Of a stretch of 64,000 nt of DNA, positions 10,890 to 24,169 are shown piece by piece. The stretch comes from a phage. The position numbers and the translations under genes are program-made. Position 1 is the stretch's first letter. Each line of letters opens with the position of its first letter. The notes beneath the pieces are model-generated. The model did not search any database. It was not told where the DNA came from and saw only the letters and a program-made list of their open reading frames with translations. The stretch lies in assembly GCA_012439925.1 (NCBI GenBank), contig GCA_012439925.1_4519.1, one strand, 5' to 3'.

Positions 10890-11525
10890 ATGAAAACTAC
10901 TCCTATTACTATCGCTATTGACGCAATCATAAAACAAGCTTCTTCTTTGGCCGCTATGGCCAAAGTAATTAGTCAAAACTCTGCCCGATATAATGCTATT
11001 CTTGAAACTCTTCGTCGCCCTGGACTGAGTAATTATGAAAGCCGAGTAATTATTACAGGTGTTGGTAAGAACGCTAATATCGCAACTAAAGCTTCTGAGA
11101 CATTTGCTTCACTCGGTATCCCAAGTATGTACTTGAACACCGGGCATTATTCTCACGGTGATGCAGGATTCATTGCGCCTAATGATGTGTTGATTCATAT
11201 TAGTCGTTCTGGTAAGACTGAAGAAATGATAGGCGTGGCTAAGCATCTTAAAATGATTCGTCCTCAGGTTAAACAGATTCTGTTACATTGTAACCCTGAC
11301 ATTCCGCAAGAATACGAAGCTCTTTTTGATTATACGTTCTGTACCGGCATCGCGGTAGAGGTTGATGAGAATTCTCTGGCTCCTACAATGTCCACTACAT
11401 TGTTGTTAGCGCTTATCGATACGTTCGCTATCAACCTTTCGTCTGAACGCGGATTTACCTCTAATGACTTCCTTAAGTTCCATCCAGGCGGTGCACTAGG
11501 TGCCATGTTACGAGGCGAACAATGA
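10890..11525 (+). CDS. SIS-domain sugar-phosphate isomerase (arabinose-5-phosphate isomerase KdsD/GutQ-like, no CBS domains)
   Basis: SIS signatures VIITGVGKNANIATKASETFASLG, HGDAGFIAPNDVLIHISRSGKTEE and APTMSTT align with the KdsD/KpsF N-terminal domain. Confidence 0.8.
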   Translation: MKTTPITIAIDAIIKQASSLAAMAKVISQNSARYNAILETLRRPGLSNYESRVIITGVGKNANIATKASETFASLGIPSMYLNTGHYSHGDAGFIAPNDVLIHISRSGKTEEMIGVAKHLKMIRPQVKQILLHCNPDIPQEYEALFDYTFCTGIAVEVDENSLAPTMSTTLLLALIDTFAINLSSERGFTSNDFLKFHPGGALGAMLRGEQ

Positions 11526-11665
11526 AAGCAATAACAATAGGACTTTTACTATTGATGCTTGCCATGACTATCTACTGGAGCTTAACGGCTCCAGTAATGA
11601 TTCCGACTCTTATAATCGGATGGATTATGATTGGACTACAAGCAAAGTATGAATGCTTTAACTAG
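11522..11665 (+). CDS. Small hydrophobic peptide (47 aa, predicted membrane)
   Basis: ATGA overlap with the isomerase stop; MKAITIGLLLLMLAMTIYW...; below the ORF-track cutoff. Confidence 0.3.
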   Translation: MKAITIGLLLLMLAMTIYWSLTAPVMIPTLIIGWIMIGLQAKYECFN

Positions 11666-20526: not shown

Positions 20527-20560
20527 GTTTACATCTTCCTCTAGGCATGATATGATGTAC
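20527..20560 (+). promoter_or_regulatory. Early promoter (GTTTACA -35 / TATGAT -10)
   Basis: -35 and -10 hexamers separated by 17 nt upstream of the 20586 ORF. Confidence 0.5.
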
Positions 20561-20960: not shown

Positions 20961-21000
20961 GTTTACTTCTCCAGTAGTTTTGTTATTATAGACCTATCAA
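20961..21000 (+). promoter_or_regulatory. Early promoter cassette (PeSL-like)
   Basis: GTTTAC ... TATTATAGACCTATCAA; the 9-bp inverted repeat CTCCAGTAG/CTACTGGAG flanks the -10 and its 3' arm overlaps the SD. Confidence 0.55.
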
Positions 21001-21015
21001 CTACTGGAGAACAAA

Positions 21016-21333
21016 ATGAAAACCATCGATTGTAAAGCAGAATTTAAGATTTTTTATCACGGTTCAAGTAGTTCAGCTAACATCGAAAACATGCTTTGTC
21101 CTCCTGAAGAAACAGGAGTTCTGTCTGAAACTGGACGTAAGAAAAACTTGGATCGTGTATTCTTTACTGAAGATATCGGTTTAGCAAAGATTTATGCAGG
21201 ACGAGCAGCACGCTCTTATGGAGGTGAACCACGTCTCTATCGAGTAATTTCTCCGGTAGACGTAGTTCAAATGAATGATACTAAAGGTGCTACAGTTTAT
21301 CACGCTGAATGGGCCTTCTGTGAGGAAATATGA
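21016..21333 (+). CDS. Hypothetical protein with HGS ... Y-x9-Y ... E pattern
   Basis: FYHGSS, KIYAGRAARSYGG and a C-terminal HAEWAFCEE resemble the H-Y-E ADP-ribosyltransferase triad, but the protein is only 105 aa. Confidence 0.5.
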   Translation: MKTIDCKAEFKIFYHGSSSSANIENMLCPPEETGVLSETGRKKNLDRVFFTEDIGLAKIYAGRAARSYGGEPRLYRVISPVDVVQMNDTKGATVYHAEWAFCEEI

Positions 21334-21521
21334 GCAAATTAACTAAAGTTACTTTTATCGGTTGGTTTAAAAGCGGCGAGATGTTCACTAAAGATATCAT
21401 GTTATCAGGTGATCGCGAAGAAATCGAGTGGGTTGCGGTACAACTTGCCGAAGTGAACAATGCATTAGTTAAAGCATTTATTAATGACGAGAAAGTTTTT
21501 GAAGCTGATTTCAGAGGATAA
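21330..21521 (+). CDS. Hypothetical protein
   Basis: ATGA overlap with the previous gene. Confidence 0.4.
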   Translation: MSKLTKVTFIGWFKSGEMFTKDIMLSGDREEIEWVAVQLAEVNNALVKAFINDEKVFEADFRG

Positions 21522-21737: not shown

Positions 21738-21778
21738 GTTTACAAGCACTACATACTGTGTTACTATCTTTCTATCAA
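21738..21778 (+). promoter_or_regulatory. Early promoter cassette (PeSL-like)
   Basis: GTTTACA, 17-nt spacer, TACTAT, then CTTTCTATCAA. Confidence 0.5.
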
Positions 21779-21795
21779 CTACAGAGGAAATTGAA

Positions 21796-22164
21796 ATGAA
21801 AAAATTAATCGCTTTAGCAATGGTATTTGGATTAACCGGATGTGGTGCCCGTGGCTTTATCCCTAATAATGTCGGCCAATTGATTTATAACCCGAATGTT
21901 AAACAGTACAACCAACCTAAAGTTGAAGTGGAAGACCCGGTTACTGTAGGTAATCGAATGATTCAAGCTGATGCCAATGCTCAACGTTATCGTGACTCTG
22001 ATACTGTAGCATTGTCAAAAGAACAACGCGTTAAAGAACATTGCTTACAGGCTACTGAAATCGCATTCATTCGCTATGTTGAAACAACTGGTAAAGAGCC
22101 TTCCCAGAAACAAATCGCGAATAACTACGTCCAGTGTATTGAACGTTTAAACAAATTTAATTAA
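21796..22164 (+). CDS. Putative lipoprotein
   Basis: Signal peptide with lipobox: MKKLIALAMVFGLTGC. Confidence 0.55.
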   Translation: MKKLIALAMVFGLTGCGARGFIPNNVGQLIYNPNVKQYNQPKVEVEDPVTVGNRMIQADANAQRYRDSDTVALSKEQRVKEHCLQATEIAFIRYVETTGKEPSQKQIANNYVQCIERLNKFN

Positions 22165-22167
22165 TCG

Positions 22168-22205
22168 GTTTACACCAAAGTTAAAATAAGATACTATAAA
22201 CATAA
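22168..22205 (+). promoter_or_regulatory. Early promoter
   Basis: GTTTACA, 17-nt spacer, TACTAT. Confidence 0.45.
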
Positions 22206-22225
22206 CAAATCAAGAGGAAATTAAC

Positions 22226-22474
22226 ATGGAATTATTCGTAGCTAGTTCAGTAGCAGTTTTAATCGCAGGTATTGGTTCAATCATCATTTACATGTTGCCT
22301 TGGGTAATCGCACTTATTCGTGGCACAAAAAGCACAACAGCAATCTTCTTTGTATCTTTACTCTTTAACTGGACGATGATTGGTTGGATTGGAACTTTAA
22401 TTTGGTCTATCGTTGCCGAAAAGAAATCTGCTCAGCAGCCTCAACAAGTAATTATTATTCGCGAAAAAGAATAA
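22226..22474 (+). CDS. Small two-TM membrane protein (Imm-like superinfection-immunity candidate)
   Basis: Two hydrophobic helices separated by RGTKSTT; 82 aa. Confidence 0.5.
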   Translation: MELFVASSVAVLIAGIGSIIIYMLPWVIALIRGTKSTTAIFFVSLLFNWTMIGWIGTLIWSIVAEKKSAQQPQQVIIIREKE

Positions 22475-22478
22475 ACTT

Positions 22479-22520
22479 GTTTACATTATAGATGGACTAT
22501 GGTATAGTAGTCCTATCAAA
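22479..22520 (+). promoter_or_regulatory. Early promoter cassette (PeSL-like)
   Basis: GTTTACA, 17 nt, TGgTATAGT (extended -10); inverted repeat GGACTA/TAGTCC straddles the -10. Confidence 0.55.
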
Positions 22521-22537
22521 TCAACTAAGGAGTTAAA

Positions 22538-22831
22538 ATGAAAAAGTTATCATTGGCAGCAATCTTACTTGCAGTATCATGTGCACCAGCTCCAGTTACA
22601 GCAGGTTATGATAAAGACCTCTGTGAGTGGTCAATGACTGCAAATCAAGAAGATGTTGAACAACAAATCTTCTCTGATATCGTGAACATCACTAAACGAG
22701 ACCGTCCTAATATGGTTAATAAAGTTGTTGAACAACTTAAGTCCGGCGGTATCATGCAGTACAACTATGTTTTGTATTGTGACCCTAATTTCGATAACAA
22801 AGATATCGTAACCGAAATCACAGGTGAATAA
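22538..22831 (+). CDS. Secreted small protein, Spackle (Sp)-like
   Basis: Signal peptide MKKLSLAAILLAVSC...; 97 aa; GYDKDLCEW...YNYVLYCD resembles what I recall of T4 Sp. Confidence 0.5.
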   Translation: MKKLSLAAILLAVSCAPAPVTAGYDKDLCEWSMTANQEDVEQQIFSDIVNITKRDRPNMVNKVVEQLKSGGIMQYNYVLYCDPNFDNKDIVTEITGE

Positions 22832-22832
22832 T

Positions 22833-23483
22833 ATGATTTATTACATGCACAAAAACGCACCATTCAAATATGGTAAATTTCCTAATGCACAATGTTATAA
22901 TATAACGCCGAATGAAAATAATAACGGATACCATATTGGTGTAATTTTTGTAATTGTTAAAGATAACGAAATCGTTGCCTGGGCAGATTTTAAAGGTACA
23001 ACATACGATGTTAATCCTGTGCCTTTCACATATTACAATATAATGGATTTGGCATATGATTATAATTGGTTTACTCATGACACGTTGGCTCATATTGAAG
23101 GTGTAGGATTTGACATCTCTTATTCTAGCTATTCGTTATGTCCTATGAGCCGAGCTCACGGTAAAGATGTATCATATCTTTCAATTCGGAAACGTGTAAA
23201 CTTCAAACGTAGTACAGAGTATGTTGGTGGACTCTTTGTTAAAGATAATAAAATAACCCGTATTAGTTATCCTTTAAGTGTAGATCAAAAAGATGTTGAT
23301 GTTGATTTAGACTTAACTGAAAGTAACATTAATCGTATTGCTTCTGTATATTTTGATATCGATGAAAAAATTGTAGTGTGTGGATACGAATTACCACTTG
23401 AAGAAAAGGCTGAAGCAATTGAAGTCGAATTAGAAATTTCTGTTGATGACCAAATATTTAATGCATTTATGAATCGAGGTTAA
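22833..23483 (+). CDS. Hypothetical protein
   Basis: ATG directly after the previous stop; about 216 aa. Confidence 0.5.
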   Translation: MIYYMHKNAPFKYGKFPNAQCYNITPNENNNGYHIGVIFVIVKDNEIVAWADFKGTTYDVNPVPFTYYNIMDLAYDYNWFTHDTLAHIEGVGFDISYSSYSLCPMSRAHGKDVSYLSIRKRVNFKRSTEYVGGLFVKDNKITRISYPLSVDQKDVDVDLDLTESNINRIASVYFDIDEKIVVCGYELPLEEKAEAIEVELEISVDDQIFNAFMNRG

Positions 23484-23484
23484 A

Positions 23485-23682
23485 ATGACTACTGCAATTT
23501 GCACTGGTTCTAAAATTAGTGTTTTTACAAGTTTTGAAGATTATGAAGTTGTTTCAAAACACCAATGCCATATTAGCGTAAAAGCTAATGATGGTGTAAT
23601 TTGGAATATTCCACACTATGAAGACACTACATATGAAGTCACAGATGCGAACGGTGATAAAGCGATCTTTGTGATTGATTAA
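23485..23682 (+). CDS. Hypothetical protein
   Basis: ATG ORF 2 nt after the previous stop. Confidence 0.4.
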   Translation: MTTAICTGSKISVFTSFEDYEVVSKHQCHISVKANDGVIWNIPHYEDTTYEVTDANGDKAIFVID

Positions 23683-23701
23683 ATATACTCAGGAGGTACC
23701 T

Positions 23702-24169
23702 ATGGGTATTATTAACACTGCAATAGATTCAGTTTATGCATATAAGTTTATTCGACTAATGCAAAAACCTTTTACCGAATGGAAAGCGTACGAAGCCAAA
23801 ATCATCGACGAACGTGGAAGTGTTCTTAAACGTCCTTCCACTCCTGAAGAGAAAGCGGCTTATACACCTTTTCATGCTTCAGTTCGTTCAATGAAGCGAA
23901 TGATGAGTACTGTTCCAGGTCTTAATGGAATGGCCTCAATGATGTCTGCCTGGAGTGCTGTAGCATCCCGCTATAACATTACAGAAGAACAGCAGAAAGA
24001 AATATTTAAAGAACTCCCTTTATTTGAGGATATGGTTGCTGGTGATTCAGGTGGCAGTCCTCAAGCTATTGCATCAGGAACTACTACAGGTGCAATTGTA
24101 AATAAAGGTCCAGAACAAATTCCTTCCAAGAAAAGAAAGCGAATTAAAGTAAATATTAATAAGTTGTGA
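23702..24169 (+). CDS. Hypothetical protein
   Basis: ATG with AGGAGG SD 8 nt upstream (the ORF-track start at 23675 is TTG). Confidence 0.5.
   Translation: MGIINTAIDSVYAYKFIRLMQKPFTEWKAYEAKIIDERGSVLKRPSTPEEKAAYTPFHASVRSMKRMMSTVPGLNGMASMMSAWSAVASRYNITEEQQKEIFKELPLFEDMVAGDSGGSPQAIASGTTTGAIVNKGPEQIPSKKRKRIKVNINKL

What the first reader, a model, noticed from the sequence alone, without database searches (positions are those of the whole stretch)
21796..22831. Cluster of envelope-targeted small proteins: lipoprotein, two-TM Imm-like protein and Spackle-like periplasmic protein
Three adjacent early genes encode a lipobox lipoprotein (MKKLIALAMVFGLTGC), an 82-aa two-helix membrane protein and a 97-aa signal-peptide protein resembling T4 Sp. 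Each has its own promoter cassette. This looks like a superinfection-exclusion module. The lipoprotein has no T4 counterpart that I recognise and could block secondary DNA injection or receptor access.
Basis: partly seen in the sequence, partly recalled or inferred. Interest (0 to 1): 0.4.

Follow-up and report, generated by a model that had tools for sequence, protein, structure and literature searches.

The report
RB69-type imm.1–imm–sp exclusion gene trio
These three small envelope-targeted early genes are the already annotated imm.1, imm and spackle genes of an RB69-like T-even phage. Two are well-studied blocks to a second phage infection, and the third is an unstudied lipoprotein that sits next to imm in every T4-like phage examined.

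Summary
Window 21796-22164, 22226-22474 and 22538-22831 (+ strand) encode a 122-aa lipobox protein, an 82-aa protein with two hydrophobic segments, and a 97-aa signal-peptide protein. Each follows its own T4-type early-promoter and Shine-Dalgarno cassette.

The window is an RB69-like Mosigvirus (97.7% identical to RB69). RB69 annotates these genes as imm.1, imm and sp. Imm (Pfam PF14373) and Sp (PF25676) are each 65% identical to the T4 proteins. Sp keeps its disulfide cysteines and all named gp5-contact residues, and RB69 gp5 keeps the matching basic residues.

It is the homologue of T4 Imm.1 (DUF5481), which is itself a lipobox protein lying 8 nt upstream of T4 imm.

New here: Imm.1 belongs to a wider lipoprotein family that lies directly beside imm in 23 of 23 T4-like contigs. 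This holds in both gene orders and in at least three genome contexts. No family member has Asp at +2, so outer-membrane sorting is predicted, and two C-terminal cysteines are invariant. The gene is under purifying selection (pN/pS 0.06).

Its function is untested. A role as an accessory to Imm is my best guess, not a result. The cluster as a whole is already known, so interest is low to moderate.

The parts
21738..21767 (+). T4-type early promoter-like site (GTTTACA-N17-TACTAT) upstream of imm.1
   Evidence: It ends 29 nt before the ATG, and GAGG lies at 21784-21787.
21796..22164 (+). imm.1: 122-aa pre-lipoprotein (signal peptide residues 1-15, lipobox LTG|C16, Gly at +2). The mature protein has a roughly 30-residue low-confidence tether followed by helices 48-67, 75-98 and 104-120, with invariant C83 and C114.
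   Evidence: DUF5481, 3.3e-9; phrog_1754; RB69 imm.1.
22168..22197 (+). T4-type early promoter-like site (GTTTACA-N17-TACTAT) upstream of imm
   Evidence: It ends 29 nt before the ATG.
22226..22474 (+). imm: 82-aa inner-membrane superinfection immunity protein with two hydrophobic segments
   Evidence: PF14373, 1.5e-15; phrog_1039; 65% identical to T4 Imm.
22479..22508 (+). T4-type early promoter-like site (GTTTACA-N17-TATAGT, with TG before the -10) upstream of sp
   Evidence: It ends 30 nt before the ATG.
22538..22831 (+). sp (spackle, gene 61.3): 97-aa pre-protein with signal peptide residues 1-22. The mature 75-aa periplasmic protein inhibits the gp5 tail lysozyme. It has a C29-C81 disulfide.
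   Evidence: PF25676, 5.9e-42; PDB 6X6O/6XC0/6XC1/7CN6.

Best explanation
The region is the imm.1-imm-sp early-gene trio of an RB69-like (Mosigvirus) T-even phage.

Expression (inferred). Within minutes of infection, host sigma-70 RNA polymerase fires the three T4-type early promoters, and all three products go to the envelope. This rests on promoter and ribosome-binding motifs only.

1. Sp (by homology to experimentally characterised T4 Sp). Sp is exported and its signal peptide removed. It forms the C29-C81 disulfide and binds the basic surface around the substrate cleft of the gp5 tail-spike lysozyme of a later-arriving T-even phage. This inhibits peptidoglycan digestion, and with it tail-tube penetration and lysis from without.

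2. Imm (by homology). Imm inserts into the inner membrane and prevents transfer of the second phage's DNA across it.

3. Imm.1 (inferred, not shown). Imm.1 is lipidated at C16. Its +2 residue is Gly, and no family member has Asp there, so it is predicted to be sorted by Lol to the inner leaflet of the outer membrane. From there a flexible tether of about 30 residues holds a small disulfide-stapled helical domain in the periplasm. The family is welded to imm across Tevenvirinae, so I think it most likely acts as an accessory of Imm-type immunity at the periplasmic injection site. It could help position or stabilise Imm at the contact zone, or it could engage the incoming tail-tube tip.

Adjacency to sp. 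All three genes are adjacent only in the RB69 lineage. There the imm.1-imm pair has left its usual place between genes 43 and 42, which is now filled by sugar-modification genes, and sits next to sp.

Separate confidences: identity of the three genes about 0.97; Sp and Imm mechanisms by homology about 0.85; Imm.1 as an outer-membrane lipoprotein about 0.7; Imm.1 as an Imm accessory in exclusion about 0.35.
For: Identity of the phage and genes:
- The region is 97.7% identical in DNA to RB69 and 98.5% to phage TH12. RB69 annotates imm.1, imm and sp in this order between 61.4 and 61.2.
- Pfam and PHROG hits for all three proteins exceed the curated cut-offs.

Sp:
- It is 65% identical to T4 Sp.
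- C29 and C81 and the contact residues named in the T4 structure paper (S32, M33, T34, A35, Q37, N76) are all conserved.
- RB69 gp5 keeps R181, R182, R187, K189, R312, K321, R326, G322 and the catalytic residues E184 and D193.

Imm:
- It is 65% identical to T4 Imm.

Imm.1:
- It is homologous to T4 Imm.1.
- The lipobox is nearly invariant, and C83 and C114 are invariant, across 26 family members.
- The +2 residue is G, V, A or Q in the family members examined, never D.
- pN/pS is 0.06 among 5 Mosigvirus copies.

Linkage of the lipoprotein to imm:
- An HMM of the lipoprotein family hits exactly 23 ORFs among 80 Imm-containing IMG/VR loci.
- Those 23 are all the T4-like loci. Each hit is on the same strand and directly beside imm.
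- The pair is found as lipoprotein then imm in T4, RB69, Merlin, Klebsiella phage Roth76 and L006. It is found as imm, then sometimes 42.1, then lipoprotein in VR26, P896, AnYang and L010-L012. It follows gene 43, 61.4 or frd.3.

Relocation:
- The RB69 43-42 interval holds sugar-metabolism genes plus a remnant annotated as 'similar to T4 42-imm intercistronic region'. A 42.1 homologue remains at window 11522-11665.

Promoters.
Against: - No experiment or paper links Imm.1 to exclusion.
- From memory, not verified here: Lu and Henning (1989) reported that plasmid-borne imm alone causes exclusion, so Imm.1 cannot be strictly required.
- Imm-like genes in non-T4 phages stand alone. None of 57 such loci has a family member, and the Bas80, KP591P1 and Vibrio phage loci show none either.
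- One metagenomic contig (L013) has gene 43, then the lipoprotein, then a SIS-domain gene, with no adjacent imm.
- One variant (P0002) has Phe in place of the lipobox Cys.
- Adjacency among related phages may partly reflect shared ancestry rather than selection.
- Imm.1 is far more diverged from its T4 homologue (32%) than Imm and Sp are (65% each). That fits a different or faster-changing target.
- The AlphaFold models are of low overall confidence (mean pLDDT 62-64).
- The profile-profile link between DUF5481 proper and the Moonvirus, Klebsiella-phage (Roth76) and Gaprivervirus lipoproteins covers only the N-terminal ~47 columns, which include the signal peptide.
- Export, lipidation and localisation are predicted, not measured.
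Confidence: 0.75

Rival explanations
1. Imm.1 is a receptor-jamming exclusion lipoprotein of the T5 Llp / T1 Cor kind. On this view it is anchored in the outer membrane and binds the periplasmic face of the phage's outer-membrane receptor, so that further virions cannot adsorb or trigger.
For: Like Llp, it is a small early-expressed phage lipoprotein predicted to sit in the outer membrane, with a disulfide. Llp is a 61-residue mature outer-membrane lipoprotein with a Cys11-Cys58 disulfide (PMC9586334). Imm.1 diverges fast between T4 and RB69 (32% against 65% for its neighbours), which would fit a tie to variable receptors.
Confidence: 0.08
2. Imm.1 has an envelope role unrelated to blocking a second infection, and its position beside imm is inherited gene order rather than functional coupling. 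Possible roles include stabilising the envelope during prolonged lysis inhibition, modulating lysis timing, or countering a host periplasmic or outer-membrane defence.
For: Imm-like proteins work alone in other phages, and none of 57 non-T4 loci carries the family. One contig has the lipoprotein without an adjacent imm (L013). The neighbouring genes are anti-defence or host-takeover genes (Dmd and AdfA). Imm.1 evolves at a different rate from Imm.
Against: The pair stays together through an inversion of gene order and through moves to at least three different genomic neighbourhoods. It is adjacent in 23 of 23 T4-like loci, sometimes with overlapping or 8-nt-spaced reading frames. That is more than simple inheritance of one arrangement would predict.
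Confidence: 0.35
3. The juxtaposition of sp with imm.1-imm is a lineage-specific by-product of genome rearrangement, not a selected three-gene module. The three genes act independently and do not need to be neighbours.
For: In T4 and most other genera, sp lies between 61.4 and 61.2, while imm.1 and imm lie several kb away between 43 and 42. In RB69 the 43-42 interval is filled with sugar-modification genes and holds a 42.1 remnant. Each of the three genes has its own promoter, so co-transcription is not required.
Against: None decisive. Bringing functionally related early genes together could still be advantageous, for example for co-transfer by recombination. The arrangement is kept in all 155 or so RB69-like records that cover the region.
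Confidence: 0.55

Closest known systems
T4 Spackle (Sp, gp61.3; Pfam PF25676; PDB 6X6O, 6XC0, 6XC1, 7CN6)
   Same: Both are 97 aa and 65% identical. Both have a 22-residue signal peptide. The C29-C81 disulfide cysteines and all named gp5-contact residues are conserved. The gene sits immediately upstream of 61.2 in both phages. The cognate RB69 gp5 keeps the Sp-binding basic residues.
   Different: The upstream neighbour is imm here, where T4 has 61.4. Thirty-four residues differ from T4 Sp. Binding to RB69-type gp5 has not been tested.
T4 Imm (superinfection immunity protein; Pfam PF14373 Imm_superinfect)
   Same: 82 against 83 aa, 65% identical. Both have two hydrophobic segments, the YMLPW-IAL-RG motif and the C-terminal QVIIIREKE.
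   Different: The genomic position differs: between imm.1 and sp here, between imm.1 and 42.1/42 in T4. The gene has its own early promoter here. In T4 it starts 8 nt after imm.1.
T4 Imm.1 (Pfam PF17578 DUF5481; 'hypothetical predicted membrane protein')
   Same: Both have a lipobox signal peptide, the YNPNVK-Y and AQ-YR-SD motifs, and two conserved C-terminal cysteines. Both lie immediately upstream of imm.
   Different: Identity is only 32%. The window protein lacks the GPVVNQSDVGK segment and the extra Cys pair (C33 and C44) of T4 Imm.1. The function of both is unknown.
T5 Llp and T1/phi80 Cor (outer-membrane exclusion lipoproteins)
   Same: All are small early phage lipoproteins with a disulfide, and all sit (or are predicted to sit) on the periplasmic side of the outer membrane.
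   Different: There is no sequence or fold similarity. Llp is encoded next to the receptor-binding protein and blocks adsorption. T-even exclusion does not block adsorption. Imm.1 is encoded next to an inner-membrane immunity protein.
Two-component trans-envelope pairs of an inner-membrane protein and an outer-membrane lipoprotein, such as the Rz/Rz1 spanins or LpoB-PBP1b (analogy from general knowledge, not tested)
   Same: The genetic pairing is the same: a small inner-membrane protein gene beside an outer-membrane lipoprotein gene. The lipoprotein has a predicted disordered tether long enough to reach across part of the periplasm.
   Different: There is no homology. No interaction has been shown. 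Imm has almost no periplasmic domain. This is an analogy only.

Membership tests
T4 Spackle family (PF25676) | Profile match above the curated cut-off over the full length | tested here: met
   142.6 bits against a cut-off of 27, covering residues 1-96 of 96. phrog_1586 'spackle periplasmic' scores 1.9e-41. PDB 6X6O matches at 5.4e-39.
T4 Spackle family (PF25676) | Cleavable N-terminal export signal and the Cys29-Cys81 disulfide pair | tested here: met
   The N-terminus is KK plus a hydrophobic core, with ...VTA|G23. C29 and C81 are present. Cleavage and disulfide formation themselves were not measured.
T4 Spackle family (PF25676) | Conserved gp5-lysozyme contact residues (S32, M33, T34, A35, Q37, N76) and a cognate gp5 with the basic binding surface | tested here: met
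   All six residues are identical to T4. RB69 gp5 keeps R181, R182, R187, K189, R312, K321, R326 and G322. gp5 of this exact phage lies outside the window.
T4 Spackle family (PF25676) | Inhibition of gp5 lysozyme activity and an exclusion phenotype | not testable with these tools
   This needs a biochemical assay or an efficiency-of-plating test.
Imm_superinfect (PF14373) / T4 Imm | Profile match above the curated cut-off | tested here: met
   57.2 bits against 27.9, covering profile positions 1-42 of 42. phrog_1039 'immunity to superinfection' scores 9.9e-31.
Imm_superinfect (PF14373) / T4 Imm | Small membrane protein with two hydrophobic segments | tested here: met
   Kyte-Doolittle 19-residue windows of at least 1.6 cover residues 1-34 and 40-59. 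This is hydropathy only, and topology was not predicted.
Imm_superinfect (PF14373) / T4 Imm | Orthology to T4 Imm (full-length similarity) | tested here: met
   65% identity over 83 columns, E 3e-37.
Imm_superinfect (PF14373) / T4 Imm | Blocks DNA entry of a superinfecting phage | not testable with these tools
   This needs an exclusion or DNA-ejection assay.
Imm.1 / DUF5481 (PF17578) | Profile match above the curated cut-off and full-length similarity to T4 Imm.1 | tested here: met
   37.5 bits against 27. BLASTP against T4 Imm.1 gives 32% identity over residues 3-120, E 4e-19. tblastn finds the T4-type gene in 502 records.
Imm.1 / DUF5481 (PF17578) | Position directly beside imm on the same strand | tested here: met
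   In the window the gene ends 61 nt before imm. The same pairing is seen in 23 of 23 T4-like loci.
Bacterial-type lipoprotein (Lgt / signal peptidase II substrate) | Signal peptide with lipobox [LVI][ASTVI][GAS]C | tested here: met
   MKKLIALAMVFGLTG|C16. The lipobox is nearly invariant in the 26-member family alignment.
Bacterial-type lipoprotein (Lgt / signal peptidase II substrate) | Actual lipidation, and outer-membrane sorting (no Asp at +2) | tested here: inconclusive
   The +2 residue is Gly here and G, V, A or Q in relatives, never Asp. By the E. coli +2 rule this predicts Lol export to the outer membrane. Lipidation and localisation were not measurable here.
Llp/Cor receptor-blocking exclusion lipoproteins | Sequence or fold similarity to Llp/Cor | tested here: not met
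Llp/Cor receptor-blocking exclusion lipoproteins | Gene linked to the receptor-binding protein gene; blocks adsorption | tested here: not met
   The gene is linked to imm, not to tail-fibre genes. T-even exclusion does not block adsorption (PMC6832632). The adsorption phenotype of Imm.1 itself is untested.

The most novel reading that the evidence does not exclude
T4-type superinfection immunity is really a two-component, trans-envelope system. An outer-membrane-anchored Imm.1-family lipoprotein works together with inner-membrane Imm at the DNA-injection site in all T-even-type phages, and it sets the strength or specificity of exclusion between phage lineages, for example RB69 against T4. This partner has been overlooked for more than 30 years because imm alone gives a partial phenotype. 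A related possibility is that Sp, whose signal peptide carries an invariant lipobox-like SC motif, is also membrane-tethered.
Probability: 0.2. Interest if true: 0.55.

Novelty: already known. Interest (0 to 1): 0.27.

Why it matters
Imm and Sp are the textbook example of how a lytic phage shuts the door behind itself, but how Imm works is still unclear. In every T4-like genome sampled, imm is physically paired with a conserved gene under purifying selection that is predicted to encode an outer-membrane lipoprotein. That gives a concrete and cheap experiment: delete or co-express imm.1. The result could explain why plasmid-borne imm only partly reproduces immunity, and what sets cross-exclusion between T-even lineages. 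For the scan itself, the cluster is an annotated, ordinary feature of RB69-like genomes.

Tried and rejected
- Structure-based function assignment for Imm.1 failed. Two AlphaFold2 runs, with 6- and 26-sequence alignments, gave mean pLDDT of only 63.6 and 61.7. Only the C-terminal helical hairpin was confident.
- A sequence profile of the family against PDB chains found nothing (best E 0.35). NCBIfam found nothing.
- An exhaustive HMMER search of 1.84 billion representative proteins found only 9 clusters at E up to 1e-3. There are therefore no bacterial homologues to borrow a function from.
- Literature searches for 'imm.1' and 'DUF5481' returned only one paper, which mentions Imm.1 as a gene-content marker. 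The T4 genome review (PMC150520) is not held.
- I tested whether Imm-like genes outside T4-like phages also carry a neighbouring lipoprotein. None of 57 loci has a family member. Two have unrelated lipobox ORFs, which is too few to generalise.
- I considered and rejected the idea that imm.1 is a decaying or spurious ORF, because pN/pS is 0.06.
- The generic sigma-70 promoter scan was not above chance as a whole. Only the T4-specific GTTTAC motif is enriched.
Full report
**What is there**

- The 122-aa protein starts MKKLIALAMVFGLTG|C, which is a canonical lipobox with Gly at +2.
- The 82-aa protein has two strongly hydrophobic stretches.
- The 97-aa protein has a KK plus hydrophobic signal, with ...PVTA|G at residues 22/23.

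Only 7 of 95 non-overlapping + strand ORFs in the window have such a hydrophobic segment, and three of them are these consecutive genes.

Each gene is preceded by GTTTACA-N17-TA(C/T)(T/A)(A/G)T, ending 29-30 nt before the ATG, and then by a GAGG or AAGGAG ribosome-binding site. The T4-early-type motif GTTTAC-N18-TANNNT occurs 11 times in the window, all on the + strand, against 0.97 expected. The 'promoter cassette' observation is therefore real as a sequence feature. Two more such cassettes precede the two genes further upstream. No terminator-like site separates the genes.

**Which phage and which genes**

The region is 97.7% identical to phage RB69 and 98.5% identical to phage TH12. About 155 RB69-like (Mosigvirus) records cover it. 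RB69 annotates the genes in this order: 41, ORF041c, ORF040c, dmd, 61.4, imm.1, imm, sp, 61.2... 61.

Pfam and PHROGs agree with these names:

| Gene | Pfam hit | Score (cut-off) | PHROG |
|---|---|---|---|
| imm.1 | DUF5481 | 37.5 bits (27) | phrog_1754, unknown function |
| imm | Imm_superinfect | 57.2 bits (27.9) | phrog_1039, immunity to superinfection |
| sp | T4_Spackle | 142.6 bits (27) | phrog_1586, spackle periplasmic |

**Sp and Imm**

The window Sp is 65% identical to T4 Sp without gaps and matches the solved T4 Spackle structures.

The T4 structure paper reports that mature Spackle is 75 residues long and has a disulfide between Cys29 and Cys81. It binds the basic surface around the substrate cleft of the gp5 lysozyme domain and inhibits the enzyme. 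The contacts it names include Ser32-Ala35, Gln37 and Asn76 (PMC7677548). All of these residues are identical in the window protein.

On the other side of the interface, RB69 gp5 keeps all seven basic contact residues, Gly322 and both catalytic residues. gp5 of this exact phage lies outside the window.

Imm is 65% identical to T4 Imm.

A review describes imm and sp as blocking secondary-phage genome translocation without blocking secondary adsorption. It also describes them as protecting against lysis from without and against premature collapse of lysis inhibition (PMC6832632). The 'superinfection-exclusion module' reading is thus supported for two of the three genes, by strong homology rather than by experiment on this phage.

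**The lipoprotein does have a T4 counterpart**

It is the homologue of T4 Imm.1:
- tblastn finds a T4-type copy at 32-33% identity over 97% of the query in about 500 Tequatrovirus records.
- Pairwise BLASTP gives E 4e-19.

T4 Imm.1 (MKIAILVIALGLAG|C...) also has a lipobox and ends 8 nt before T4 imm, between genes 43 and 42.

The RB69 genome record has called this gene imm.1 all along.

**A wider imm-linked lipoprotein family**

DUF5481 proper is tiny. An exhaustive HMMER search of 1.84 billion representative proteins found 9 clusters at E up to 1e-3.

The genes next to imm in other Tevenvirinae genera turned out to be lipoproteins built on the same plan. The examples were Moonvirus Merlin gp46, a 147-aa protein of Klebsiella phage Roth76, Gaprivervirus VR26_045 and P896, and Dhakavirus AnYang gp231. 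The shared plan is:
- a lipobox L(T/S/A)GC;
- an N-terminal G-(D/E)-x-V-x-A-S-E-V-G-K segment;
- a G-x-G-L-x-Y...Q motif;
- a helical C-terminal part with two cysteines.

A profile-profile comparison links these proteins to DUF5481 at 97.7% probability. The caveat is that this covers only the first ~47 columns, which include the signal peptide.

A joint profile recovered 29 proteins. In a 26-member alignment, C83 and C114 are invariant, and L13, G15, C16, Y31 and Q37 are nearly invariant. The residue after the lipid-modified Cys is G, V, A or Q, never Asp. By the E. coli +2 rule (general knowledge), this predicts sorting to the outer membrane.

**Systematic linkage test**

I collected 80 IMG/VR loci that contain an Imm-like gene and searched them with an HMM of the lipoprotein family.

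- The HMM hit exactly 23 ORFs. These are all 23 of the T4-like loci. Each hit is on the same strand and directly beside imm.
- None of the 57 non-T4-like loci had a family member. Two of them have unrelated lipobox ORFs just upstream of the Imm-like gene.

The pair occurs in two orders:
- lipoprotein then imm (T4, RB69, Merlin, Klebsiella phage Roth76, metagenomic L006);
- imm, then sometimes 42.1, then lipoprotein (VR26, P896, AnYang, L010). In L011 and L012 the two frames overlap by 4 nt.

It also occurs in at least three neighbourhoods: after gene 43, after 61.4 and after frd.3.

Exceptions were few:
- One contig has gene 43, then the lipoprotein, then a SIS-domain gene, with no adjacent imm (L013).
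- One variant has Phe in place of the lipobox Cys (P0002).

Among five Mosigvirus copies, pN/pS is 0.06 for imm.1, 0.10 for imm and 0.06 for sp. The pairs are not independent. Even so, imm.1 is clearly a constrained coding gene.

**Why all three are adjacent here**

In T4 and most genera, sp sits between 61.4 and 61.2, while imm.1 and imm sit several kb away between 43 and 42.

In RB69 the 43-42 interval is occupied by sugar-metabolism genes: an arabinose-5-phosphate isomerase, a nucleotidyl-transferase-like protein and a phosphoheptose isomerase. It also holds a small ORF annotated as 'similar to T4 42-imm intercistronic region'. The window keeps this ORF at 11522-11665, and it is a 42.1 homologue.

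The simplest reading is that the imm.1-imm pair was displaced as a unit and now lies next to sp. The three-gene adjacency is specific to the RB69 lineage and need not have functional meaning.

**Structure of the lipoprotein**

Two AlphaFold2 runs gave low overall confidence, with mean pLDDT of 63.6 and 61.7. Residues 17-47 had pLDDT below 50, which I read as a likely flexible tether. A helix at residues 48-67 was weakly supported. A hairpin of helices 75-98 and 104-120 was confident (pLDDT about 90) and carries the two invariant cysteines.

Fold searches returned only the protein's own family or generic helical hairpins. No solved relative exists by sequence. Structure therefore assigns no function.

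**How it most likely works**

By homology:
- Sp inhibits the gp5 tail lysozyme of incoming phages in the periplasm.
- Imm blocks DNA passage at the inner membrane.

Inferred from motifs:
- All three genes are transcribed from strong early promoters.
- Imm.1 is lipidated and sent to the outer membrane.

Hypothesis only, at about 0.35:
- Imm.1 assists Imm-type immunity at the injection site.

Arguments against that hypothesis:
- Imm-like genes stand alone in other phages.
- Plasmid-borne imm alone is reported to give exclusion (Lu and Henning 1989, from memory).
- Imm.1 has diverged from its T4 homologue about twice as far as Imm has (32% against 65% identity).

The Llp/Cor-like receptor-blocking idea is unlikely, at about 0.08. 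T-even exclusion leaves adsorption intact, there is no similarity to Llp, and the gene is not linked to receptor-binding genes.

**Verdict**

The cluster is already annotated in RB69-like genomes.

The only open point is the function of the Imm.1 lipoprotein family. Its tight pairing with imm makes that function easy to test.

Noticed in passing
window 22538-22603 (Sp residues 1-22); also L005, L016, L017, L106-L124: The Sp signal peptide contains an invariant Ser14-Cys15. This gives a lipobox-like [L/V/A][A/S/V]-S-C in all 17 distinct Sp sequences examined (T4: LASC; window: AVSC). The ...P-x-x-A|G site at residues 22/23 is also conserved. Published work treats mature Sp as residues 23-97. 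Whether Sp is ever lipidated at C15 is unresolved.
   Followed up: partly
window 22833-23483 and 21330-21521: The trio is flanked by known anti-defence genes. Downstream lies gp61.2, which is AdfA, the anti-DarT factor (Pfam PF23813, E 8e-118). Upstream lies Dmd (PF17587, E 8e-21). The region is an early-gene island of host-takeover and counter-defence functions.
   Followed up: partly
window 11522-11665 (+): This 47-aa hydrophobic ORF is homologous to T4 42.1 (60% identity over 30 aa). It remains at the ancestral position of imm, between gene 43 and the 42-like gene, and overlaps by 4 nt the end of an ORF (10890-11525) that corresponds by position to RB69's arabinose-5-phosphate isomerase gene. 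It is a footprint of the relocation of imm.1-imm.
   Followed up: partly
window 23675-24169 (+): This is a single 164-aa ORF (phrog_2086 plus phrog_1823). The RB69 reference record splits it into ORF032c and 61.1, while phage CAU_ECP01 annotates one CDS. Either RB69 has a frameshift or the gene models differ.
   Followed up: no
window 21016-21333 (+): This 105-aa ORF is the RB69 ORF040c homologue (phrog_2110, no Pfam hit). Its end overlaps the dmd start by 4 nt, and it has its own early-promoter cassette. It is also present upstream of dmd in Dhakavirus IME08. Its function is unknown.
   Followed up: no
L006 718-1086 (protein P0002): This Imm.1 variant is 45% identical to the window protein, but its lipobox Cys is replaced by Phe (LAGF-SAHA). 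It looks like an ordinary secreted protein rather than a lipoprotein. It comes from a single short metagenomic contig, so a sequencing error cannot be excluded.
   Followed up: no
L056 2249-2479 and L060 2057-2440: In two non-T4-like viral contigs, unrelated lipobox ORFs (76 and 127 aa) lie immediately upstream of the Imm-like gene. This hints that a lipoprotein-plus-Imm pairing may have arisen more than once.
   Followed up: no
protein P0003 (ENA contig, 198 aa): This is a PolA-like C-terminal fragment fused to the last 28 residues of RB69-type Imm.1. It is probably a chimeric assembly or a gene-calling artefact.
   Followed up: no
window 20527-20556, 20961-20989, 21738-21767, 22168-22197, 22479-22508: Five consecutive intergenic cassettes have the same layout: GTTTAC, a -10 element, CTATCAA, GAGGAAA, then ATG. 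Across the window all 11 strict GTTTAC-N18-TANNNT matches are on the + strand. This fits a long block of early genes all transcribed in one direction.
   Followed up: partly
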